Origin: a virus
Lineage: Duplodnaviria > Heunggongvirae > Uroviricota > Caudoviricetes
Direction: 5' to 3' (one strand)
IMG/VR virus record: IMGVR_UViG_3300045988_046105
Span: 1-29,037 of that record
DNA length: 29,037 nucleotides
Part shown: piece after piece, positions 410-29,037 of the stretch
How the letters are laid out: every line of letters begins with the position of its first letter
Numbering within the stretch: position 1 is the stretch's first letter
Position numbers and translations under genes: made by a program
Notes under the pieces: generated by a model
Database searches by the model: none
What the model saw: the letters and a program-made list of their open reading frames with translations, nothing else
Told to the model about the DNA's origin: nothing

Positions 410-740
410 ATCCCCCGCAGAACGCAAAGCCGCGCAGCGCGCTCGGCAGTCCGCCGCCGGTGAGCGCAAAATTGAACTGGTGCTGGATAAGCAGGAGCAG
501 GAAATGCTGGCGCGGAACTGCGCCGCCCGGCGCCCTGGTCGCGATCCCTATGAAATGGTCGAGTACATCGCGCTGCTGATCCGCCAGGATGATGCACGTG
601 TGCGCGGGCGTATAAAATCGATCAGCAGAAAACTTTGCGGTAAGTGCGGCGAGAGAGTTCCCGTTAATTCATGCCCGTGTAATGGTGACTCGCAATGCTG
701 GGTGACTAAAGGCTGGCATGAAACGAAATTAATAGTGTGA
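402..740 (+). CDS. hypothetical phage protein with C-terminal Cys cluster (possible metal-binding)
   Basis: ORF 393..740; GTG at 402 has GGAG 8 nt upstream. Basic N-terminus, C-terminal CGKCG...CPC...C motif. Stop TGA 738-740 lies inside the GTGACATGTCAC palindrome. Confidence 0.5.
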   Translation: MAKSPAERKAAQRARQSAAGERKIELVLDKQEQEMLARNCAARRPGRDPYEMVEYIALLIRQDDARVRGRIKSISRKLCGKCGERVPVNSCPCNGDSQCWVTKGWHETKLIV

Positions 741-748
741 CATGTCAC
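737..748. repeat. exact palindrome GTGACATGTCAC, copy 1 (14-mer TGTGACATGTCACG)
   Basis: Read directly; overlaps stop codon of 402..740 and lies in the 17-bp gap before the next gene. Confidence 0.9.
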
Positions 749-3159: not shown

Positions 3160-3190
3160 ACAAAGCCAGCTCATCGGCTGGCTGTTTGTG
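3160..3190. terminator. bidirectional intrinsic terminator between convergent terminase and accessory gene
   Basis: Hairpin AGCCAGC-TCATCG-GCTGGCT (3164-3183), A-tract upstream and GTTTGT downstream on + strand. Confidence 0.5.
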
Positions 3191-3199
3191 ACATGTCAC
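3188..3199. repeat. exact palindrome GTGACATGTCAC, copy 2 (14-mer TGTGACATGTCACG)
   Basis: Read directly; 4 bp downstream of the stop of minus-strand gene 3204..3575. Confidence 0.9.
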
Positions 3200-13475: not shown

Positions 13476-15989
13476 ATGCCAGTTGTACCAACAACATCGG
13501 GCCGTCAGGTTCAGAGCAGAGGGATTTCGACGCAGGGATTCTCATCGTTTCAGACACCAAATGTCGGTGATGTACTTGGCGATGTTGCAGAGCAATATGC
13601 AGGTATTATTGCGCAGGCAAAACAGCGTGCGAATGTTGCTATGGCTCAGGATGCTTCTCTTAGCTTAAGCCAGATAAGCAGCGATCTGCTGAATAACCCT
13701 GAAACAGGTTTGCTTAACCTGAAAGGGAAAAATGCTATTGGAAAAGGTCAGGAGTATACGCAGCAGTTTGATGCTCAGATCGAACAACTGGCTATGTCGC
13801 TGCCGGATGAACAGGCTCGTAATGCTTTCATGCAGCAGGCGCAGCAGCAGCGCATTCAGTTCACTACGCAGGCCGGGCGGCACGAGATATGGCAAATAAA
13901 TGCCTACGAAGAAGGCCAGTTTCAGGCTACGCTGCTGAACAATGGTAAAAATGCCGCAGCATTGTATGGCGACAACGCCGCATACGTATTGGCTAATAAG
14001 CAAACTTTCCAGCAAATTGAGGATTACGGCATTGCACATGGCTGGAGTGACGAGCAAATCCAGGCCAAGAAAATCGAGTTTAAAGAAGCAACAGCAAAAG
14101 CAACTGCTCAAAATGCTATTGGAGCAAACTATCTTCAGGTAAGACAGCAAAACGGCGAGTTAAGCGATACTGCTGCTGGTTCTCGCCGTGCTGTAGCAGA
14201 TAGTGGCTCTTCCGATCGTACCCGCGGTATACGCAACAATAACCCCGGCAATCTTGAATACAGCAAAACTAATCCGTGGGTTGGGCAGACTGGTGATGAT
14301 GGTCGCTTTGCCAAATTCGAAACCCCTGAACACGGTATTCGTGCATTAGGGCGGAACCTGATGTCGTATCAGCGGCAGGGTATTGATACCGTCAGCGAGA
14401 TAATTAATCGCTGGGCACCGCCTACTGATAAAAATGACACTATGTCGTATATCAAAGCAGTGTGCGAACAACTTGGCGTTTCTGCTGATGAGCCTCTCGA
14501 TGCATCAAATCCTGATACCCTGAAGGCGCTTTGTGCAGCCATTATCCATCATGAAAACGGTAGCCAGCCATACAGTGATCAGCAGTTAACTGCAGGTGTT
14601 AGTGCTGCGCTGGGGCTTTCTCAGCTACCGACAAAAAATAAACGTTATACCGGTGTAGCCTGGTTCGATGCTTTAAGTGAATCAGATCAGGCCAGCGTGT
14701 TGCGACAGACTGATGCACTAGCCAGACAACAGCAGGCTGAATATAAAACGATGCTCGACAGCCGGGTTCGCGATGCGACGGCTGCGTATATGCGTGGCAT
14801 TGAATTTCCTAACCCACCTGGTGAGGATGATTTTATTGCAGCTTATGGAGTCAGAGAAGGAAACCTGCGATATACCGAGTTTAAGAATACGCAGATCGCC
14901 GGACAGTATATAGGCTCTTTCCGCAACATGCCGACAAGCAGCATTACAGCATATGTTGAGCAATTACGCCCGGATACTGGTGATACAGGGGAGGGGTATG
15001 CGGCACGCGCAACTCTTTATGACAACGTTGTTTCGGCTGCAAATCAGGTGATAAAGCAGCGGCAGTCGGATCCTGTGCAGTTCTCTCTTGCCTCCGGACA
15101 GGCAAAGCCTATCGACATGAGCAATAAGGATAACTTTGGACAGAGCGTTGCCTTGCGTGCCGCTCAGGTCAGTGACCTTGCTAAGTCATATGGCACTCCA
15201 CTGACGTTCTTTTCCAAAGACGAGGCCAATCAGATCGGTGTTTTCTTTCGTGATGCGCCAGTTTCCCAACAGGCAGCATATCTCGATACCATCAGGCAGA
15301 GCACTGGTGGTGGGCAGGTGTATATGTCAGCACTACAGCAGATCAGTGCCAACGCTCCATCTGCTGCCGTTGCCGGGATACTGATGGATAAGCCTGGTGG
15401 TATTTTGGCAGAAAAAAACTGGTTTAATCCGGATGTTTCCGTGTCTCCTGAAACCGCTGCGCAGACAATTCTTGCTGGCGCGGCGGCTCGTAAAGGTACT
15501 GATGATGCGAAAGGTATTCCGATGCCTAAAGATGCTGATCTTCGCCTTGAGTTTTCTGACATGGTGAAGGATGCATTTGCTGGTGACGCTCAGGGCGCAT
15601 CAATGGCATACGAGATCGCAAAGGATTATTACGCTGGTGTGATGGCGAAAAAAGGCGTGGTATCAGGCGAAATTGACAATGATGTCTGGAAACAGGCTGT
15701 TAACGTAGCTACAGGTGGCGTGCATGACTATAACGGAATGGGGAATGTCCTTTTGCCGTGGGGAATGTCTGCAGAGCAATTCGATAAGCAGGTTAATCAG
15801 GCTTGGAATGAACAAGTTGTCGGCTCCGGGATAAAAACACCGCCTGGTCAGTATGGTTTGCAAAGTTACGGCGATAGTCAGTACCTGGTGAAACTTGGTA
15901 CTGGTTATCTGCTGAAAGATGATGGTTCTCCCGTTGTTCTTAATCTGACACAGAAGCGTCAGAGATTCTCCGGAGATATTCCGCAATGA
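13476..15989 (+). CDS. internal virion / ejection protein (gp15 position) with embedded NPGN-motif domain
   Basis: 837 aa, SD AAGGGGA; contains GIRNNNPGNLEY...WAPP...IHHENG segment (nt ~14200-14600). Confidence 0.55.
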   Translation: MPVVPTTSGRQVQSRGISTQGFSSFQTPNVGDVLGDVAEQYAGIIAQAKQRANVAMAQDASLSLSQISSDLLNNPETGLLNLKGKNAIGKGQEYTQQFDAQIEQLAMSLPDEQARNAFMQQAQQQRIQFTTQAGRHEIWQINAYEEGQFQATLLNNGKNAAALYGDNAAYVLANKQTFQQIEDYGIAHGWSDEQIQAKKIEFKEATAKATAQNAIGANYLQVRQQNGELSDTAAGSRRAVADSGSSDRTRGIRNNNPGNLEYSKTNPWVGQTGDDGRFAKFETPEHGIRALGRNLMSYQRQGIDTVSEIINRWAPPTDKNDTMSYIKAVCEQLGVSADEPLDASNPDTLKALCAAIIHHENGSQPYSDQQLTAGVSAALGLSQLPTKNKRYTGVAWFDALSESDQASVLRQTDALARQQQAEYKTMLDSRVRDATAAYMRGIEFPNPPGEDDFIAAYGVREGNLRYTEFKNTQIAGQYIGSFRNMPTSSITAYVEQLRPDTGDTGEGYAARATLYDNVVSAANQVIKQRQSDPVQFSLASGQAKPIDMSNKDNFGQSVALRAAQVSDLAKSYGTPLTFFSKDEANQIGVFFRDAPVSQQAAYLDTIRQSTGGGQVYMSALQQISANAPSAAVAGILMDKPGGILAEKNWFNPDVSVSPETAAQTILAGAAARKGTDDAKGIPMPKDADLRLEFSDMVKDAFAGDAQGASMAYEIAKDYYAGVMAKKGVVSGEIDNDVWKQAVNVATGGVHDYNGMGNVLLPWGMSAEQFDKQVNQAWNEQVVGSGIKTPPGQYGLQSYGDSQYLVKLGTGYLLKDDGSPVVLNLTQKRQRFSGDIPQ

Positions 15990-17793: not shown

Positions 17794-20268
17794 ATGAGAC
17801 AGGAATGTATACAAGCGGTTCAGCAGGCGGCGCAGCGCATGTTAACGGCGCGAGAAATACAGAACATTGAAGACCGCATTTATCGAAATATGCGCTCCAT
17901 TGCTCGTGATGACCCTATGTCGTGGCGACAACTTTCCGAATCAGAGCGGCTATATCGAGCAGCACAATTGGCATCTGAAGAATTACAGCGAGAAGCGGCA
18001 TTAAAGAAACGTCGTGTGGCTCTCACTATAGCCGCGCGTCAGAGATTGGATAAATTTATCAATAGCTATCAAGGGGCTGATGGGAAACTTGGCGCTCTTA
18101 ACCGTACTATAGCTTTTAATGCAGACGGTAAATCTAATTTCCTCTCTGTTGAATCCAGAACAAAAGCCACCCGTGATTATGCATTGAGTCAATTGCAGGA
18201 GGCATTCGAAGCAGTTGATCCTCGCTTTTTTGGTCTGTTTGAAGATGAAGCGGGCGTACGTGACCTGGTATATGAAATGCGGGGGCAAAATACTGGCAAT
18301 GCTAAAGCAAGAAACGGTGCTAAGGCGTGGAGAGAAGTTACAGAGCTGCTGCGCCGCCGGTTTAATGATGCTGGTGGGGACATTGGCTATCTCGAAAACT
18401 GGGGGATCCCTCAACATCATTCTATGGAAAAGGTTGGGGCAGTATCAAAGGATAAGTGGGTTAGCGATGTTATAGGTAAGCTGGATCGCAAATATTATAT
18501 CCGAGCCGATGGACAACTGATGAACGATGCCGAGTTGTCTTCATTTCTTGGAGAGGCTTATAACACGATCGCTACTGGTGGGCTGAATAAGCTTACTGAT
18601 ACCGGAATGCGAATTTCCGGCGCACGTGCTAACCGTGGTAATGCATCACGACAGATACATTTCAAAGATGCAGATTCCTATCTGCAATATCAGCAACTTT
18701 ATGGCGATCGCTCTCTATGGGAAATCATGGTCGGTCACCTGGAAGGTATCAGTAAAGATATTGCACTGGTGGAAACATATGGCCCAAACCCCGATCATGT
18801 TTTCCGCTCTCTTCTTGATCAGGTGAAGGCAGAAACGGCAACAGCTAACCCGAGTAAAACCGGTAAAGTCGAGCGGCTGGCGAACAACACAGAGAATCTG
18901 TACAACTTTATTTCCGGAAAGACACAGCCTGTAGCGAATCCGCACATCGCGCGATGGTCTGACAATATCCGCAACTGGCTGGTTGCCAGCAGACTCGGAT
19001 CCGCGTTGCTGTCATCGTTCTCTGATCTTGGAACCATGTATCTGTCTGCGAAGGTTACCAACCTTCCAATGAACCAGTTATTCCGCAACCAGCTTGAAGC
19101 TATGGACCCAACGAACCGTACAGAACTTGCGCGGGCTCGCCGCGCTGGTCTGGCGATGGAATCTCTACTTGGCAGCGTTAACCGCTGGGCGATGGATAAT
19201 ATGGGGCCGTCAGTGTCTCGTTGGGCGGCAACGGCGGTAATGCGTGCCAGTGGGCTTACAGCATGGTCAGATGCGCACAAGCGCGCCTATGGCGTAACCA
19301 TGATGGGAAGCCTGGGAGAAGTAGTGTCACGGACACCAGACCTTCGTAGCCTCGATGACTCTGATTTTCGTATCCTGAAAAGCAAAGGGATTACTGACAC
19401 AGACTGGAGCGTATGGAAGCTGGCGAAACAGGAGGACTGGGGGAACGGTAATAATACGATGCTGACACCGGAAAGCATTATGCGTATCCCTGATTCAGCA
19501 GTTAAACATCTTGGTGAGCCTGAACGCGTGAAATTTGAGGCAATGCGTAAACTGCTCGGTGCCGTAACTGAAGAAGTTGATATGGCTGTTATTACACCGG
19601 GAGCACGTGAGCAACTGATAACCGGTTCTGGTATTCAGCGTGGAACATGGAAAGGTGAATTAACGAGAAGTGTTTTCCTGTTTAAATCGTTCCCTATCTC
19701 GGTTGTTATGCGTCACTGGTCACGCGCTATGGGTATGCCGTCTGCTGGTGGGCGTGCGGCATATATTGCGACGTTTATTGCCAGTACGACCATTCTTGGC
19801 GCTTTGTCGCAGCAACTTAACGACCTTGCGTCTGGTCGTAATCCTCGAGAGATGACAGGAGAAGATGCCGCAAAATTCTGGCTTGGTGCTCTACTGAAAG
19901 GTGGTGGTCTTGGCCTTTACGGTGACTTTTTATTGTCAGATCACACTAGGTACGGAAGCGGCGCGCTGGCGTCGATGCTTGGCCCGGTAGCTGGTCTGGT
20001 TGATGACGTAGTGAAGATTGCTCAGGGCATACCGTTAAATGCTGTGGAAGGGAAGAGTGAGCAGACTGGTGGTGATCTGGTGAAGCTGGGGAAAGGTTTG
20101 ATGCCTGGTGCGAATCTCTGGTACTTGAAGGCGGCTCTCGATCACATGATCTTTAACCAGATGCAGGAGTATTTTTCACCAGGCTATTTGCGTAAAATGG
20201 AGCAACGTTCGAAGAAAGAGTTTAACCAGACATACTGGTGGCGACCACAGGATGTCACTCCGCAATAA
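17794..20268 (+). CDS. internal virion protein D-like (gp16 position)
   Basis: 824 aa, SD GAGAGG; last large gene of virion block. Confidence 0.55.
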   Translation: MRQECIQAVQQAAQRMLTAREIQNIEDRIYRNMRSIARDDPMSWRQLSESERLYRAAQLASEELQREAALKKRRVALTIAARQRLDKFINSYQGADGKLGALNRTIAFNADGKSNFLSVESRTKATRDYALSQLQEAFEAVDPRFFGLFEDEAGVRDLVYEMRGQNTGNAKARNGAKAWREVTELLRRRFNDAGGDIGYLENWGIPQHHSMEKVGAVSKDKWVSDVIGKLDRKYYIRADGQLMNDAELSSFLGEAYNTIATGGLNKLTDTGMRISGARANRGNASRQIHFKDADSYLQYQQLYGDRSLWEIMVGHLEGISKDIALVETYGPNPDHVFRSLLDQVKAETATANPSKTGKVERLANNTENLYNFISGKTQPVANPHIARWSDNIRNWLVASRLGSALLSSFSDLGTMYLSAKVTNLPMNQLFRNQLEAMDPTNRTELARARRAGLAMESLLGSVNRWAMDNMGPSVSRWAATAVMRASGLTAWSDAHKRAYGVTMMGSLGEVVSRTPDLRSLDDSDFRILKSKGITDTDWSVWKLAKQEDWGNGNNTMLTPESIMRIPDSAVKHLGEPERVKFEAMRKLLGAVTEEVDMAVITPGAREQLITGSGIQRGTWKGELTRSVFLFKSFPISVVMRHWSRAMGMPSAGGRAAYIATFIASTTILGALSQQLNDLASGRNPREMTGEDAAKFWLGALLKGGGLGLYGDFLLSDHTRYGSGALASMLGPVAGLVDDVVKIAQGIPLNAVEGKSEQTGGDLVKLGKGLMPGANLWYLKAALDHMIFNQMQEYFSPGYLRKMEQRSKKEFNQTYWWRPQDVTPQ

Positions 20269-20487
20269 AAGGAGATATGATAGTTCAAATAACTTTTATT
20301 GTACTAATATGTGCAGCGTTTTTATGCTATTCATACATTTTGATAAAAATGGGTTTCAATTGGAATCTCTGTTGCGTGCAGCGGCATGGTTCGGCTTTGT
20401 AGTATTCGGAATTGTATTGTTCGGAAGAATAATAAAATAACTAGTTAATTTGTGGATTGGTGCTGTTTTTCCATGATAGGGGTAATT

Positions 20488-20868
20488 ATGAGAAAAGTAT
20501 TTTTGATTTTTGGATTTATGCTTCTCGTTGGATGCCAGTCAGCTGCACAGTTTGAAAGAAATATGCTTACGTGGCGCGGGCAGAGTATAGACGCAATGGT
20601 TCAGCAGTGGGGGTATCCTCAGGGAGAGCTTACATCTCCAGATGGAAACAGAGTGTATGTTTACTCAAGCTCTGGTAGTTATAACGTACCACAAACCACA
20701 ACGTATAATACTACGTCTAATCTAATTGGTAATACTATATATTCAAACACATACGCAACAACTGATGGCGGTTATACACTCCATTTCAGTTGCTCTGTTT
20801 ACGTTGAGTTTGGTGCTGATAAGATTATTAAAAATGTTACATGGCGCGGTAATAATTGCGTTGCGTGA
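20488..20868 (+). CDS. lipoprotein (moron; candidate superinfection-exclusion / receptor-masking factor)
   Basis: ATG 20488 with AGGGG SD; signal peptide MRKVFLIFGFMLLVGC with lipobox LVGC; AT-rich gene unlike flanking virion genes; stop inside palindrome copy 3. Confidence 0.6.
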   Translation: MRKVFLIFGFMLLVGCQSAAQFERNMLTWRGQSIDAMVQQWGYPQGELTSPDGNRVYVYSSSGSYNVPQTTTYNTTSNLIGNTIYSNTYATTDGGYTLHFSCSVYVEFGADKIIKNVTWRGNNCVA

Positions 20869-20876
20869 CATGTCAC
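20865..20876. repeat. exact palindrome GTGACATGTCAC, copy 3 (14-mer in inverted orientation, CGTGACATGTCACA)
   Basis: Read directly; overlaps lipoprotein stop codon. Confidence 0.9.
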
Positions 20877-20901
20877 AGGCCGCTTTCGCGGCCTTGTTTT
20901 T
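20877..20901 (+). terminator. intrinsic terminator of lipoprotein gene
   Basis: AGGCCGC-TTTC-GCGGCCT followed by TGTTTTTA. Confidence 0.6.
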
Positions 20902-21061
20902 AACGAATGCCACCGCCACCCGGGCGGGAATCCGCAGAACGCCCACCGCAGCGGGAGCCGTCAGCAGCAGTGTCGCTGTCGTGCTGACAACGACCGGCAA
21001 AGGCCTGAGTTGAAGCTACCAGAGACAACAAAACGAACAGTGCAGCAAATGCTTTTTTCAT
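20900..21061 (-). CDS. small secreted Cys-containing peptide (53-aa precursor; ~31-aa mature Gly/Arg/Asp-rich peptide)
   Basis: Internal ATG 21061 gives MKKAFAALFVLLSLVASTQAFA-GRCQHDSDTAADGSRCGGRSADSRPGGGGIR: classic signal peptide with AxA site, two Cys, E. coli-like codons. SD is weak. Confidence 0.35.
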   Translation of the reverse strand: MKKAFAALFVLLSLVASTQAFAGRCQHDSDTAADGSRCGGRSADSRPGGGGIR

Positions 21062-21154: not shown

Positions 21155-21694
21155 TTACCAAAACTTGTACCACGGGGATTTATCCTTCAATGGACAATCC
21201 TTCCATCGTGTGGCCAACCATTCATATTCTTTAAAATATGTGTTTATGTTTTCTTTTTCTCTAATGGCTTGTATAAGAGGTAGCGCAATCTGATAGTTAT
21301 TTACAACGGAGCTGTAAAATACTTCCTTAATCATGGTCTCATCATAAGTTTTCCGCTTCACGCTCACAGCCATGCGTTCGTAGAAACCTAGACAGTAAAT
21401 TATTTCTCTCTTCTCTGTCTTTTCTTCATCCGTAAGATCAGCCTGCCCATTGCTTGGATACATATAAGAGCGGAATGATTTGTTCGATTCGTGAATGCGG
21501 CGCATAGTAGATAGGCCTTTCTTATAATCTACATCAAACCTGCTTTCACCAAGGAATACTGAAGTGTGTACTTTTCTCGCTGTATTTACATTATAAATAA
21601 TAGTAGCGATAGCTATGAACAAGCCAAGCGAAACCGCGACTGCACTTACGATTTGAGCCACAGCCATGGCAAATTGCATTTCTTCACTTAACAC
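21155..21694 (-). CDS. membrane-anchored protein with ~150-aa predicted cytoplasmic domain (candidate exclusion/abortive-infection factor)
   Basis: GTG 21694 with GGAGA SD 6 nt upstream (alternative ATG 21679). One long N-terminal TM helix followed by basic residues. AT-rich. No family recognised. Confidence 0.55.
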   Translation of the reverse strand: MLSEEMQFAMAVAQIVSAVAVSLGLFIAIATIIYNVNTARKVHTSVFLGESRFDVDYKKGLSTMRRIHESNKSFRSYMYPSNGQADLTDEEKTEKREIIYCLGFYERMAVSVKRKTYDETMIKEVFYSSVVNNYQIALPLIQAIREKENINTYFKEYEWLATRWKDCPLKDKSPWYKFW

Positions 21695-22991: not shown

Positions 22992-23720
22992 ATGGAAGTT
23001 TTCTGGATAGTTGTTGGTGTGGTTGCGGTGATTATTTACGTTATCAACCAGAACAAGACTAAGATCTCTGATCGTACGGTCGTTAATCATAACAAAACGA
23101 TAAAGACCGAAGATGGGGAGATAACGATTAATCGTACACAGGTGATAGAACACACCTCTACTCAGTTTCAAAAAACTGGAGGTAATGCGCCTAATATTTC
23201 CGCACCTCCTGCTTATGATAGTGCGGTAATCCAGACATATTATAAACAGCAGGAGTTAGCAAAAGAGAGGCAACTGATTCAGCCAAAGCCGTTTACAGCT
23301 GAGCTTCCACCTGGAGTGTCAATGCGTCCGGCATATCATGGAAGATTCCCTGGTGATGACATATCGTCTCAGTCATCTAAAAAAGCACCTCAGGCAGTAT
23401 CAGAGCCAGCAAGAATACCTTCTGTATCGCCGCCAAAAGAAGAATCAGCTAACAGAGTTTCAAGTGGTAGCAAGCAGTGCTTGCGATGCAGAATAAACCT
23501 ACCATATGAAAAATTCAGGAAATCGTCAAAAAATCCAGATGGATTGACTAAGTGGTGTGCAAGGTGTCTCGATGGCCCAAAGAATACACGCCATATGAAG
23601 TGGTGCCCAATTTGTAATGTCCGCAGAAAACGAACAAGCTTTTACCCTAATAATCAAAATGCGGATGGCTTAATGGCATGGTGCAAAACGTGCTGGGACG
23701 AGCACAAAGCGAAACGATAG
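22992..23720 (+). CDS. membrane-anchored protein with Pro-rich linker and tandem C-terminal zinc-ribbon-like repeats
   Basis: SD GAGGA 6 nt upstream; N-terminal TM helix; two repeats of C-x2-C-x17/18-(P/A)DGL-x3-WC-x2-C (CLRC...PDGLTKWCARC and CPIC...ADGLMAWCKTC). Confidence 0.6.
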   Translation: MEVFWIVVGVVAVIIYVINQNKTKISDRTVVNHNKTIKTEDGEITINRTQVIEHTSTQFQKTGGNAPNISAPPAYDSAVIQTYYKQQELAKERQLIQPKPFTAELPPGVSMRPAYHGRFPGDDISSQSSKKAPQAVSEPARIPSVSPPKEESANRVSSGSKQCLRCRINLPYEKFRKSSKNPDGLTKWCARCLDGPKNTRHMKWCPICNVRRKRTSFYPNNQNADGLMAWCKTCWDEHKAKR

Positions 23721-26914: not shown

Positions 26915-27328
26915 GTGGAAAACATGTCAGCTCAACTAACCAGTGAAACTTTAAATCAGTGGCTTAGCATGAGTTCTCTGGCGGCGGTGATAGCAGGAGC
27001 TCCTCCTGAGGTTGCTTTGGGGGCTTTGGCTGGGGCGGTAATTTTTGTTACCTCTGCGGTAGAGTATCCTATTCGTCGTCGTGTACTCTTGTCGATGCTT
27101 AGCTTTCTCTGCGGCCTTCTTTTTTATAAACCAGCAGCATCAATTCTTATCGGCATAGCCAGCCTGATCCCTACCATCACGCAGGACTCTTTTGAAAAAG
27201 GGATTGTTTTCTCAGCTGGCGCATTCGTGTCAGCAATTGTTGCTGTGCGTATTGGTATATGGCTCTATCACCGTTCCGATAATCCACGCGAGTTAATTCC
27301 GGGGAGAAAAGACGATGGTAACGCATGA
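26915..27328 (+). CDS. holin-like membrane protein
   Basis: 137 aa, 3-4 predicted TM helices, charged C-terminus; two in-frame starts (GTG 26915, ATG 26924); position upstream of endolysin. Confidence 0.5.
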   Translation: MENMSAQLTSETLNQWLSMSSLAAVIAGAPPEVALGALAGAVIFVTSAVEYPIRRRVLLSMLSFLCGLLFYKPAASILIGIASLIPTITQDSFEKGIVFSAGAFVSAIVAVRIGIWLYHRSDNPRELIPGRKDDGNA

Positions 27329-27623
27329 GTTTTTTTTGCTTATCACCAATGCAGTTATTTGTACTGGCATAGCAATTCGCGTTGTCACATTCCGGCGTAA
27401 CGGCTCTCAACATCGAAGATGGGGAGGGTGGCTTGCTTATTTCCTTATTGTTGCTGCGGCCAGTATTCCTGTTCGTGTCGTCTATGCAATCTGGTTACGC
27501 ACGCCAATGGCTGTGGATTTATCTGAGGTCATTATCAACGCTGTCATGCTCGCCGCGGTTATTAAAACACGCGGTAACGTTGTTCAGATTTTCAAAATAT
27601 CGAGGTCTAAACATGGAGATTAA
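27315..27623 (+). CDS. membrane protein (second holin/antiholin-like)
   Basis: 102 aa, 3 predicted TM helices, SD GGGGAG; end overlaps endolysin start. Confidence 0.45.
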
Positions 27624-28242
27624 ACAATTCCAGCGAGCTGCTGGTATTAGCGAGTCGCTGGCCGCACGCTGGTTCTCGCATATAACTTCTGCGATGAAAG
27701 AGTTTGGTATCAGCAAAGCAGAAGATCAGGCAATGTTTATTGCTCAGGTCGGGCATGAGTCTGGGGGCTTCACCCGGTTGCAGGAGAATTTCAACTACAG
27801 CGTCAGCGGTCTGGCTAACTTTGTTCGGGCTGGGCGTCTCACTCAGGGACAGGCCAACGCATTGGGGCGACGCGCAGGCGAACCACCATTGCCACTTGAG
27901 CGCCAGAGAGCGATTGCCAATCTGGTGTACAGCAAACGCATGGGGAACAATGCCCCCGGCGATGGCTGGAATTACCGTGGCCGCGGACTTATCCAGATTA
28001 CCGGTTTGAATAACTATCGTGATTGCGGAAACGGCCTGAAAGTGGACCTGCTGGAGAATCCTGAACTGTTGGCGCAGGACGAATACGCGGCTCGTAGCGC
28101 GGCGTGGTTCTTCTCCAGCAAAGGTTGCATGAAGTATACCGGCGATATTGCACGTGTAACTCTGATTATCAATGGTGGCAGGAATGGCATCGACGACCGG
28201 CGCGCGCGGTACGTCACTGCCAGTAAGGTGCTGGCTGTATGA
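27613..28242 (+). CDS. endolysin, glycoside hydrolase family 19 (chitinase-like) type
   Basis: Internal ATG 27613 (track ORF starts upstream at 27382); motifs [12 protein letters not shown] and [15 protein letters not shown] typical of GH19-type phage endolysins (recollection). Confidence 0.8.
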
Positions 28243-28721
28243 TCTGGTCATTCGTAAAAGCATACCGTAAACAGTTGATTATCATGGCGGTGCTTGCTGT
28301 TCTGGTCATATCAGGAGTTGTTGCCTGGAATGTGCACGGCAGTCGTCAGTACGACGCTGGGTATGCACAGGCGAAAGAAGACCGCAAAACCGAAGATGAG
28401 AGAGTTCGTCAGCACTACGAACAGGAGAAATCGATCAATGAACGTGAAGCGCAGCAGAGGATCGACCAGGCGCGCAATGATGCTCTTGATGCTGCCGCTC
28501 GCGCTGGCCGGTTGCAGCAACAGCTCGTTGCCATCCGTGAGCAGCTCAGGCAGTATAACGCCACTGTCGGCGCTGGGTCGTCAGCCGCAGACACCGGAGT
28601 TTTGCTTGCCGACGTGCTCGAAAAATCTCTCGAACGAAACCGGCAACTGGCAGAATACGCTGACCGGGCAGCTGAAGCCGGAAGGGTCTGCGAAAGACAG
28701 TACGATGAACTAACCAGGTAG
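28239..28721 (+). CDS. Rz: i-spanin (Rz-like)
   Basis: ATG overlaps endolysin stop (ATGA); N-terminal TM helix then charged coiled-coil-like region; embedded +1-frame lipoprotein gene. Confidence 0.7.
28438..28713 (+). CDS. Rz1: o-spanin (Rz1-like) lipoprotein embedded in Rz in another frame
   Basis: ATG 28438 inside ORF 28294..28713 gives [26 protein letters not shown] (lipobox LAGC) followed by a Pro-rich short mature peptide. Confidence 0.6.
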   Translation: MNVKRSRGSTRRAMMLLMLPLALAGCSNSSLPSVSSSGSITPLSALGRQPQTPEFCLPTCSKNLSNETGNWQNTLTGQLKPEGSAKDSTMN

Positions 28722-28874
28722 CATGGTATTTTTCATGGTACTGTTTCCCGGTGACGGTATATAAAACGGTACGCAGAATTTATCGTTTCATAAACTTGTT
28801 TTCAGTCAATTGGTTACGAGTGCTGTAAATAATTGAGTGGGAATAATCCCCGGCGTTAGCTGAGTAAAACGAAA

Positions 28875-28901
28875 CCCTCTGTGTTTACAGAGGGTTTTTT
28901 T
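28875..28901. terminator. intrinsic terminator after lysis cassette (bidirectional-looking)
   Basis: CCCTCTGT-GTTT-ACAGAGGG followed by TTTTTTT, preceded by A-rich tract. Confidence 0.6.
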
Positions 28902-28940
28902 ATAGCTGCTACATTAAGGTCTCCCACCTGACGGCAAGCG

Positions 28941-29037
28941 CTAATCGCGCATATATTGATGCATCTGGGCCGCCGTCAGATCCCACTGGCTTCCTTCAAA
29001 CGGGGGCATATAGCTGCCATCATCTTCGCCAATCTCA
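28941..29037 (-). CDS. 3' end of a convergent ORF running off the window (C-terminus ...EIGEDDGSYMPPFEGSQWDLTAAQMHQYMRD)
   Basis: Manual translation of minus strand; open to window edge; stop TAG at 28943-28941. Identity unknown. Confidence 0.25.
   Translation of the reverse strand, partial: EIGEDDGSYMPPFEGSQWDLTAAQMHQYMRD

What the first reader, a model, noticed from the sequence alone, without database searches (positions are those of the whole stretch)
20488..20868. Lipoprotein moron directly after the ejection-protein genes
Clear lipoprotein signal (lipobox LVGC), own SD, own terminator, AT-rich composition. Phage lipoproteins at this position often mask receptors or block DNA entry (Llp and Cor are known examples), but I see no sequence similarity to those I can recall, so the function is open.
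Basis: partly seen in the sequence, partly recalled or inferred. Interest (0 to 1): 0.5.

Follow-up and report, generated by a model that had tools for sequence, protein, structure and literature searches.

The report
BamE-like lipoprotein ending a phage ejection operon
This is a real gene for a small outer-membrane lipoprotein of unknown function that phiV10/epsilon15-like phages carry as the last gene of the operon for their DNA-ejection proteins; it most likely blocks entry of other phages, but that has not been tested.

Summary
Window 20488..20868 (+) is an intact 126-codon ORF with a canonical lipoprotein signal peptide, a Shine-Dalgarno-like AGGGG, low GC (0.40 against 0.49 next door) and a downstream terminator hairpin.

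The window is a phiV10/epsilon15-like (Uetakevirus) prophage. The gene follows the IVP-D-like ejection protein.

"Moron" is only partly right:
- The terminator is the late-operon terminator, also present in phiV10, which lacks the gene.
- No promoter stands out above chance.
- In Salmonella, Enterobacter, Klebsiella and Raoultella relatives the gene lies 0-11 nt after the last ejection gene or overlaps a small membrane ORF there. In distant phage contigs it is nested between two ejection genes.

The protein belongs to a large family with no Pfam, NCBIfam or PADLOC model (3,705 clusters at 50% identity), mostly chromosomal outside this phage lineage. The AlphaFold model (pLDDT 84) has a BamE/BLIP-like fold. 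It is unrelated to Llp or Cor and is not the spanin.

Best guess (about 0.4): a periplasm-facing outer-membrane lipoprotein that binds a conserved envelope or ejection-conduit protein and blocks phage entry. Function is inferred, not shown. Interest is moderate.

The parts
20488..20868 (+). Lipoprotein gene: 126 aa, signal peptide residues 1-15, lipobox LVGC with Cys16, mature domain about 110 aa with a BamE/BLIP-like fold and conserved Cys102 and Cys124
20478..20482 (+). Shine-Dalgarno-like AGGGG, five nt upstream of the ATG
   Evidence: read directly from the sequence
20269..20863 (+). Variable cassette (GC 0.375) that replaces phiV10 gp21 between the stop codon of the last ejection gene and the operon terminator
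   Evidence: The flanks are 97-99% identical to phiV10, HEMP4 and phiv142-3; the interior is unrelated.
20277..20402 (+). Candidate 41-aa hydrophobic ORF with an AAGGAG ribosome site at 20269-20274. An overlapping 62-aa ORF (20252..20440) in another frame carries a second hydrophobic segment. Neither is annotated in RefSeq or in ZX5, so its coding status is uncertain.
   Evidence: phiV10 and phiv142-3 have unrelated small two-transmembrane ORFs in the same slot.
20865..20876 (.). Perfect palindrome GTGACATGTCAC that overlaps the stop codon. It is conserved at the right edge of the variable slot in all relatives examined.
20877..20894 (+). Terminator hairpin plus T-run. This is the terminator of the structural/ejection operon and is shared with phages that lack the lipoprotein.
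17794..20268 (+). Last large internal virion (ejection) protein, 824 aa. It is the phiV10 gp20 / epsilon15 gp17 (IVP-D-like) homologue and is the gene the lipoprotein follows in all enterobacterial relatives.
   Evidence: PMC4819975

Best explanation
The gene encodes a small lipoprotein. It is exported by Sec, lipid-modified at Cys16 and, because residue +2 is Gln rather than Asp, sorted by Lol to the outer membrane, most simply facing the periplasm. Its mature part is a compact BamE/BLIP-like protein-binding domain extended by T/N/Y-rich beta-hairpins, probably pinned by a Cys102-Cys124 disulfide.

It is an accessory, dispensable gene of the epsilon15/phiV10-like podovirus lineage. It occupies the 3' end of the internal-virion-protein (ejection conduit) operon, so it is at least co-transcribed with late genes.

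The most likely job is protection of the infected or lysogenic cell, and of progeny phage, against further phage entry. The lipoprotein would bind, from the periplasmic side of the outer membrane, either a conserved host envelope protein used during entry or the incoming ejection conduit.

- Shown: the gene, the signal, the family, the fold class and the synteny.
- Inferred: localisation, the disulfide, expression timing, the binding partner and the exclusion phenotype.
For: **Signal and sorting.** The lipobox and signal are conserved family-wide. Residue +2 is Gln or Ala, never Asp, in all sequences read.

**Synteny.** In every enterobacterial phage or prophage locus examined the gene lies on the same strand after the last ejection gene. 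That covers 24 IMG/VR contigs plus Salmonella, Klebsiella, Raoultella, Enterobacter and metagenomic contigs. It is nested between the p600-like and p824-like genes in L066 and L068. A 28%-identical homologue sits at the same junction in Burkholderia phage vB_E332, but convergently, on the opposite strand.

**Accessory character.** Presence/absence among close relatives and GC 10-16 points below the neighbouring gene in every lineage.

**Retention without the phage.** An Enterobacter prophage remnant next to guaA keeps an intact lipoprotein gene and terminator beside a decayed fragment of the ejection gene.

**Precedent.** P22 SieA blocks the ejection-protein conduit; escape mutations map to the ejection proteins gp16 and gp20 (PMC10883804). 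From my own knowledge, not checked in that paper here, sieA lies just after the P22 ejection genes. T5 Llp is an inner-leaflet outer-membrane lipoprotein that binds the receptor FhuA (abstracts).

**Target probably conserved.** Lipoprotein identity does not track the adjacent ejection protein (Klebsiella: 79% against 28%). This favours a conserved target such as a host protein or a conserved virion part.
Against: - No experiment or expression data exists.
- No promoter stands out, and most relatives leave no room for one. Expression in lysogens, where exclusion is most useful, is therefore unproven.
- There is no similarity to any known exclusion protein and no PADLOC hit.
- Most of the family is chromosomal and non-viral, so the ancestral role is some cellular envelope function.
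- Of the 34 E. coli genomes with the cassette, 2 still hold a second phiV10-like locus, about the background rate. This test has low power and the order of acquisition is unknown.
Confidence: 0.4

Rival explanations
1. A host-envelope fitness or lysogenic-conversion factor. The lipoprotein would do for the lysogen what its chromosomal relatives do for their hosts, an envelope maintenance or stress role in the manner of OsmE, YfeY, Bor or TraT, with no direct effect on phage entry.
For: The family is huge and mostly chromosomal. In gut alphaproteobacterial MAGs it sits in a conserved neighbourhood next to an FtsB/DivIC-like gene and an M23 peptidase. An intact copy is retained in a decayed Enterobacter prophage. 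Carriers include extra-intestinal pathogenic strains such as APEC O1, IAI39 and CE10. Fold neighbours include OsmE and YfeY.
Against: The strict linkage to the ejection operon over large evolutionary distance, including nesting between ejection genes, is not expected for a generic host-benefit cargo gene. No promoter for lysogenic expression is evident.
Confidence: 0.2
2. A periplasmic inhibitor of a cell-wall enzyme, BLIP-like or Spackle-like. It would bind and inhibit a peptidoglycan hydrolase. The target could be the transglycosylase-like part of an incoming ejection protein, which would stop wall penetration by a second phage, or a host or phage lytic enzyme, which would tune lysis.
For: Fold neighbours include BLIP, a putative BLIP and a T6SS immunity protein. 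The 837-aa internal virion protein matches PHROGs annotated as endolysin or tail-injection transglycosylase. The Burkholderia relative has a lytic-transglycosylase-domain protein in the same operon. Alphaproteobacterial homologues lie beside an M23 peptidase.
Confidence: 0.15
3. A lysis or release accessory: an o-spanin-like or outer-membrane-destabilising lipoprotein made late to help cell disruption.
For: It is an outer-membrane lipoprotein, probably co-transcribed with late genes.
Against: The lysis cassette is complete: two holin-like genes, a GH19 endolysin and a DUF2514 Rz-like gene with an embedded Rz1-like lipoprotein ORF at about 28477..28713. The protein is a folded globular domain, unlike short proline-rich o-spanins. 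Many functional relatives, phiV10 among them, lack it.
Confidence: 0.04
4. A passenger with no current function in the phage.
For: It is dispensable: most relatives lack it.
Against: The ORF is intact, with 18 invariant residues, across homologues 33-79% identical to it in several genera, always in the same slot.
Confidence: 0.05

Closest known systems
BamE / SmpA-OmlA and the wider BLIP-like fold class (OsmE, YfeY, BLIP, YjgB/DUF4309, CAP-associated N-terminal domain of 4ifa/4h0a, T6SS immunity protein BtiO)
   Different: No sequence-level match to Pfam SmpA_OmlA or any other Pfam model, and only 10-20% identity in the structural alignments. It has extra long T/N/Y-rich hairpins and its own signature (WGYP, GN-VYVY, C...GNNC). 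Only about 60-77 of the roughly 110 mature residues superpose.
T5 Llp and the Cor proteins (phage outer-membrane lipoproteins that inactivate the receptor FhuA)
   Same: A small phage-encoded outer-membrane lipoprotein with conserved cysteines. The proposed action from the periplasmic side is the same as described for Llp (abstracts).
   Different: No sequence or fold match. The genomic position differs: here the gene ends the ejection operon. From my own knowledge, not checked here, llp lies next to the T5 receptor-binding gene and cor lies in lambdoid tail regions. The target here is unknown.
P22 SieA
   Same: SieA is an accessory envelope protein that blocks the ejection-protein conduit; escape mutations map to the ejection proteins gp16 and gp20 (PMC10883804). 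From my own knowledge, not confirmed in the passages read, sieA is encoded immediately after the P22 ejection genes, as this gene is after its own.
   Different: SieA is an integral inner-membrane protein with its own promoter and is expressed from the prophage. This protein is an outer-membrane lipoprotein with no evident promoter, and the two are not homologous.
Ltp of Streptococcus thermophilus phage TP-J34
   Same: A lipoprotein that blocks DNA injection by binding a phage channel-forming protein, the tape measure (PMC3952083 abstract; reference 9).
   Different: Ltp comes from a Gram-positive host, has a different (helical repeat) fold according to my own knowledge, and is not homologous.
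PHROG 3716
   Same: The protein is a full-length member (E 5e-64).
   Different: That PHROG has no annotated function, so membership names the protein without explaining it.

Membership tests
Bacterial lipoproteins (Lgt/LspA substrates) | N-terminal signal peptide with a positive n-region, a hydrophobic h-region and a lipobox [LVI][ASTVI][GAS]C | tested here: met
   MRK-VFLIFGFMLLV-LVGC. Cys16 is invariant in A1 and at least 90% conserved in A3. There is a weak LPAM_1 hit.
Bacterial lipoproteins (Lgt/LspA substrates) | Actual lipid modification, and outer-membrane sorting (no Asp at +2) | not testable with these tools
   Residue +2 is Gln, which predicts Lol export in E. coli (a rule from established knowledge). 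Globomycin sensitivity, palmitate labelling or fractionation would be needed.
BamE / SmpA_OmlA (Pfam PF04355) | Significant match to the family profile | tested here: not met
   No SmpA_OmlA hit at E <= 1 for the window protein or for 10 distant homologues.
BamE / SmpA_OmlA (Pfam PF04355) | The alpha-alpha-beta-beta-beta fold | tested here: met
BamE / SmpA_OmlA (Pfam PF04355) | Binding to BamA/BamD in the BAM complex | not testable with these tools
   Needs pull-down or cross-linking.
Llp / Cor receptor-blocking lipoproteins | Sequence or fold similarity to Llp or Cor | tested here: not met
Llp / Cor receptor-blocking lipoproteins | Blocks adsorption or DNA entry through an outer-membrane receptor | not testable with these tools
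   Needs expression in a naive host with adsorption and plating assays.
Moron (autonomous promoter-gene-terminator insert, expressed from the prophage) | Present or absent between otherwise near-identical genomes, with deviant composition | tested here: met
   The cassette 20269-20863 is absent from phiV10, HEMP4 and phiv142-3, whose flanks are 97-99% identical. GC is 0.375 against 0.49. 34 of 557 E. coli genomes with this phage type carry it.
Moron (autonomous promoter-gene-terminator insert, expressed from the prophage) | Own promoter and own terminator | tested here: not met
   The terminator is shared with phages that lack the gene. Promoter-like sites are at chance level. Gaps of 0-11 nt, or overlap with upstream genes, in most relatives. 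A promoter inside the upstream coding sequence cannot be excluded.
Two-component spanin, o-spanin (Rz1-like) | A short outer-membrane lipoprotein paired with an i-spanin in the lysis cassette | tested here: not met
   The lysis cassette at 26915-28721 has its own DUF2514 Rz-like gene with an embedded lipobox ORF at about 28477..28713. The finding lies about 6 kb (6,047 nt) upstream of the first lysis gene at 26915.
Known anti-phage defence systems (PADLOC-DB 2.0) | Match to any defence protein model | tested here: not met
   No hit for the lipoprotein or for six neighbouring ORFs.

The most novel reading that the evidence does not exclude
The lipoprotein is a BamE-like mimic made by the phage. 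From the inner leaflet of the outer membrane it would dock onto a conserved outer-membrane machine or receptor (for example BamA), or onto the outer-membrane end of the T7-gp14-like ejection pore, and so stop assembly of the trans-envelope DNA conduit.

That would be an outer-membrane-side counterpart of the inner-membrane protein SieA. It would make this a new family of entry-exclusion proteins, one recruited from a very large and wholly uncharacterised family of bacterial envelope lipoproteins, and would give that family its first function.
Probability: 0.15. Interest if true: 0.7.

Novelty: new variant of a known kind. Interest (0 to 1): 0.4.

Why it matters
Phage-encoded envelope proteins that stop further infection shape which phages can coexist in a strain and how well phage therapy works. 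Few have a known mechanism, and for short-tailed phages the only well-described case acting on the ejection conduit is the inner-membrane protein SieA.

This lipoprotein is common. The exact protein is recorded on at least 1,000 Escherichia contigs, and close homologues on hundreds of Salmonella and Klebsiella contigs. It is locked to the ejection operon across genera, and it belongs to a family of 3,705 clusters at 50% identity that has no Pfam model.

A phenotype would annotate a large blind spot in envelope biology. It could also identify the still unknown outer-membrane partner used by epsilon15-like phages. If no phenotype appears, it is one more accessory lipoprotein of unknown role.

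Tried and rejected
**Family libraries**
- Pfam, NCBIfam and PADLOC gave nothing for the protein. Pfam also gave nothing for 10 distant homologues.
- Domain fusions in family members (SHOCT, MORN variant, bacterial SH3) gave no clear functional pointer.

**Known roles**
- Llp/Cor membership is rejected: no sequence or fold match.
- The o-spanin role is rejected: the lysis cassette has its own Rz/Rz1-like pair.
- "Own terminator" is rejected: the hairpin is shared with phiV10 and phiv142-3.
- "Phage-only family" is rejected: distant homologues lie in non-viral neighbourhoods. Among 150 neighbouring ORFs from 17 loci the only phage-related families were two integrase families (two ORFs each) and one terminase (details).

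**Tests that did not discriminate**
- Co-variation with the neighbouring ejection protein, as a sign of a cognate target, was not seen.
- Depletion of second phiV10-like prophages in carriers was not seen, but power is low (2 of 34).

**Searches that found nothing or were unavailable**
- A tblastn search of GenBank phages for the nested variant found nothing beyond the three records already known to carry the family.
- Literature searches found no paper on this protein. The vB_EcoP_ZX5 genome paper, whose phage carries an identical copy, lists the ORFs in that region only as hypothetical proteins.
- The AFDB Foldseek library was unavailable.
- The model's coordinates are not returned, so the Cys102-Cys124 distance could not be measured.

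Full report
**1. What is in the sequence**

Window 20488..20868 (+) is an uninterrupted ORF of 126 codons plus TGA. The N-terminus MRKVFLIFGFMLLVGC has a positive n-region, an 11-residue hydrophobic core and the lipobox L-V-G-C. AGGGG lies five nt before the ATG.

A 7-pair (6 G-C) hairpin at 20877-20894 is followed by TGTTTTT. GC is 0.402 for the gene and 0.375 for the whole insert, against 0.494 for the gene upstream and 0.487 for the window. A regex scan of both strands found this ORF as the only one in the window with that signal pattern. A looser scan of 28000-29037 also picked up the Rz1-like ORF.

**2. Where it is**

The window is a phiV10/epsilon15-like podovirus (genus Uetakevirus). 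The flanks are 97-99% identical to phiV10, vB_EcoP_ZX5, HEMP4 and phiv142-3.

Upstream, on the same strand, lies this series:
- a tail protein of 823 aa;
- two small internal virion proteins, one of them T7 gp14-like;
- an 837-aa protein that matches PHROGs annotated as head protein, endolysin or injection transglycosylase;
- a 600-aa protein;
- the 824-aa protein, 99% identical to phiV10 gp20.

phiV10 gp20 is annotated as similar to BcepC6B gp17. A published analysis lists both epsilon15 gp17 and BcepC6B gp17 as homologues of T7 internal virion protein D (PMC4819975). "Directly after the ejection-protein genes" is correct.

Downstream, on the opposite strand, come:
- a 53-aa secreted or membrane peptide (phrog_14503);
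- a DUF4760 membrane protein;
- a Bro-N protein.

The tailspike follows on the + strand, then a lysis cassette with its own Rz and an embedded Rz1-like lipoprotein. The finding is therefore not the spanin.

**3. Is it a moron?**

Partly. The segment 20269-20863 is replaced by unrelated short membrane-protein genes in phiV10 (gp21, 46 aa) and in phiv142-3. The sequence on both sides stays nearly identical. Only 34 of 557 complete E. coli genomes with this type of ejection-gene end carry the cassette. Its GC is low.

Other features do not fit an autonomous unit. The terminator hairpin, and a perfect palindrome GTGACATGTCAC just before it, are present after the variable slot in phiV10 and phiv142-3. 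In a Salmonella prophage only the palindrome and the 5' arm of the hairpin are conserved. The terminator therefore belongs to the operon, not to the gene. No terminator-like site lies between the 824-aa gene and the lipoprotein gene. Promoter-like matches in the region are at the level of shuffled sequence (5 found, 4.4 expected).

**4. Relatives in phages**

The exact protein is on at least 1,000 Escherichia contigs. Homologues 68-79% identical are on hundreds of Salmonella and Klebsiella contigs.

In every enterobacterial phage or prophage locus examined, the gene follows the last large ejection gene on the same strand. That covers 24 IMG/VR contigs, Klebsiella phage ST11-OXA245phi3.2, and prophages of Salmonella, Raoultella and Enterobacter kobei, plus an unidentified assembly (L009) and two metagenomic contigs.
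- The gap is 0-11 nt in Salmonella, Enterobacter and several metagenomic contigs.
- There is a 4-nt overlap with a roughly 100-aa two-transmembrane ORF in Raoultella and in L009.
- The gap is 145-219 nt only in the Klebsiella and E. coli lineages.

In more distant viral contigs (30-39% identity) the gene lies between the 600-aa-like and 824-aa-like genes (L066, L068). In Burkholderia phage vB_E332 a 28%-identical homologue with the same lipobox, LGYP motif and cysteine pair sits at the same junction, but convergently.

In all these lineages the gene's GC is 10-16 points below that of its neighbour. Lipoprotein identity does not follow the neighbouring ejection protein. The Klebsiella copies are 79% identical while the 824-aa protein is 28% identical.

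One Enterobacter genome has, next to guaA, a decayed 3' fragment of the ejection gene followed by an intact lipoprotein gene and the terminator.

**5. The wider family**

A profile of 22 close relatives, run against 1.84 billion representative proteins, finds 3,705 clusters at E <= 0.001 and 1,089 at E <= 1e-10. Nearly all are proteins of about 120-140 aa.

Across 73 diverse members:
- Cys102, Gly121 and Cys124 are invariant.
- The lipobox Cys, Gly31, Gly42, Pro44, Gly53 and Asn122 are at least 90% conserved.
- The resulting signature is W-G...WGYP...P-GN-VY-Y...C-T-FE...GN-C.

Neither the window protein nor ten distant members match any Pfam family. The window protein also has no NCBIfam or PADLOC hit.

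Distant members (25-37% identity) occur in Alteromonadaceae, Campylobacterota, Alphaproteobacteria, Nitrospirota, Bdellovibrionota, Desulfobacterota and Planctomycetota, where the domain is fused behind an extra N-terminal region.

Their neighbourhoods are mostly non-viral. Gut alphaproteobacterial MAGs share a conserved arrangement with a deaminase, an FtsB/DivIC-like gene and an M23 peptidase. Others lie next to transporters, glutamate synthase or HSP20. Some are in islands with integrases, a resolvase or PIN genes. Among 150 neighbouring ORFs from 17 loci the only phage-related families were two integrase families (two ORFs each) and one terminase.

The phage copies are thus one small branch of a large bacterial lipoprotein family of unknown function.

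**6. Structure**

AlphaFold2 with the 22-sequence alignment gives mean pLDDT 84 and pTM 0.61. The model has two helices (residues 19-27 and 34-41), then a short strand and five long antiparallel strands.

| Search | Match | Score |
|---|---|---|
| Foldseek, PDB | BamE chains rank first | probability 0.95-0.99, target-normalised TM about 0.5, E 0.2-1 |
| Family profile, PDB sequences | 4h0a N-terminal domain | E 3.7e-5 |
| Foldseek, viral models | uncultured-phage protein | E 2e-5 |
| | SmpA/OmlA lipoproteins of Pseudomonas phages PP9W2 and B3 | E 0.02 and 0.27 |

The protein therefore belongs to the BamE/BLIP-like fold class but not to the BamE sequence family. That class consists of small modules that bind other proteins.

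**7. Mechanism**

Shown:
- It is a conserved lipoprotein gene.
- It has a BamE/BLIP-like predicted fold.
- It is an accessory gene.
- It is locked to the 3' end, or the interior, of the ejection operon.

Inferred:
- Outer-membrane location, from the Lol +2 rule (Gln at +2).
- A Cys102-Cys124 disulfide, from invariance of both cysteines.
- Late co-transcription, from the absence of an intervening terminator and the tight packing in relatives.

The best-supported function is an envelope-level block to phage entry, acting by protein binding at the inner face of the outer membrane. Two precedents carry this. The inner-membrane protein SieA of P22 blocks the ejection conduit (PMC10883804). T5 Llp is an inner-leaflet outer-membrane lipoprotein that binds the receptor FhuA. 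From my own knowledge, not confirmed in the passages read, sieA lies right after the P22 ejection genes. The lack of co-variation with the adjacent ejection protein suggests a conserved target, either a host protein or a conserved virion part. I put this at about 0.4.

Rivals:
- a host-envelope fitness role inherited from the chromosomal family (0.2);
- a BLIP- or Spackle-like inhibitor of a wall hydrolase (0.15), which overlaps with exclusion;
- a lysis accessory (0.04);
- a functionless passenger (0.05).

Against the exclusion reading stand the absence of an evident promoter for lysogenic expression, and the fact that 2 of 34 carrier genomes still hold a second phiV10-like locus. That last point is weak.

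**8. Novelty and verdict**

No paper in the searched library deals with this protein. The ZX5 genome paper lists the ORFs in that region only as hypothetical proteins. A phage accessory lipoprotein is a known kind of thing. This one is a different protein family with a different fold and a distinctive, conserved link to the ejection operon, so I rate it a new variant of a known kind. Interest is moderate (0.4).

Noticed in passing
window 737-748, 3188-3199, 20865-20876: The perfect 12-bp palindrome GTGACATGTCAC occurs three times exactly, each time between genes at the end of a gene block. By my own estimate an exact 12-mer is expected about 0.003 times in 29 kb. The tool's shuffle control, which allows up to 2 mismatches, gave 4 matches against a mean of 1.1, with 3 of 100 shuffles reaching 4. 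The copy at 20865 overlaps the lipoprotein stop codon. It is conserved at the right edge of the variable slot in phiV10, phiv142-3 and a Salmonella prophage, and with one mismatch in an Enterobacter remnant. ATGTCAC also lies at the left edge (20253-20259). It could be a regulator-binding site or a recombination boundary for cassette exchange.
   Followed up: partly
window 20252-20440: The 219-nt spacer upstream of the lipoprotein gene holds two overlapping small hydrophobic ORFs in different frames. One is 41 aa (20277..20402) with a strong AAGGAG ribosome site. The other is 62 aa (20252..20440). Each has one transmembrane-like segment. Together they resemble a frame-split version of the small two-transmembrane proteins found at this spot in phiV10 (gp21) and phiv142-3. 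Neither is annotated in RefSeq or ZX5.
   Followed up: partly
L007 7675-8004; L009 7705-8004: In Raoultella and in another enterobacterial prophage, a 99-109-aa two-transmembrane ORF sits between the last ejection gene and the lipoprotein gene. It overlaps both by 4 nt, so it is translationally coupled. It has no PHROG match. It may be a partner of the lipoprotein.
   Followed up: partly
L012 8112-9450 (Enterobacter quasihormaechei, next to guaA): This is a prophage remnant. About 400 nt of a decayed ejection-gene 3' end (72% identical to the Klebsiella phage) is followed by an intact lipoprotein gene and the terminator hairpin, with no other phage genes within 9 kb. A 40-nt stretch just after guaA matches window 28873-28910, probably the attachment-site region.
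   Followed up: partly
window 20903-21061 (-): A convergent 53-aa ORF has a cleavable-looking signal peptide and two cysteines. It matches phrog_14503 ("membrane associated protein", moron category) and has GC 0.57. It ends 8 nt from the terminator hairpin. It is annotated as a transmembrane anchored protein in some E. coli genomes and as a putative transmembrane anchored protein in phage TL-2011b.
   Followed up: no
window 21155-21694 (-); L076 7417-7941 (-): An AT-rich (GC 0.39) DUF4760 membrane protein has its own terminator-like hairpin at 21156-21138 (- strand). A DUF4760 gene also lies immediately downstream of the lipoprotein homologue, on the opposite strand, in an unrelated metagenomic contig. 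In Salmonella prophages a DUF2335 gene occupies that place. It looks like a second variable accessory slot.
   Followed up: no
window 22992-23720 (+): A 242-aa protein has a C-terminal zinc-finger-like region that matches endonuclease VII, HNH and Lar-like restriction-alleviation PHROGs, and weakly Pfam Stc1. It lies between the Bro-N gene and the tailspike.
   Followed up: no
window 13476-15989 (+): The 837-aa internal virion protein has no Pfam domain. It matches PHROGs annotated as endolysin and, over residues 244-364, tail-injection transglycosylase. It may be the wall-degrading component of the ejection apparatus.
   Followed up: no
L003 5856-6000 (Klebsiella phage ST11-OXA245phi3.2): In the spacer before the Klebsiella lipoprotein gene, the opposite strand appears to carry a 39-aa hydrophobic ORF (MKSKMITFF...). 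I read this by eye from the sequence and did not verify it by translation. It is not annotated.
   Followed up: no
L026-L033 (gut alphaproteobacterial MAGs): Distant homologues of the lipoprotein sit in a conserved chromosomal arrangement: a TadA-like deaminase, a 168-aa unknown, the lipoprotein, an FtsB/DivIC-like protein and an M23 peptidase. This hints at a cell-envelope or division link for the family.
   Followed up: partly
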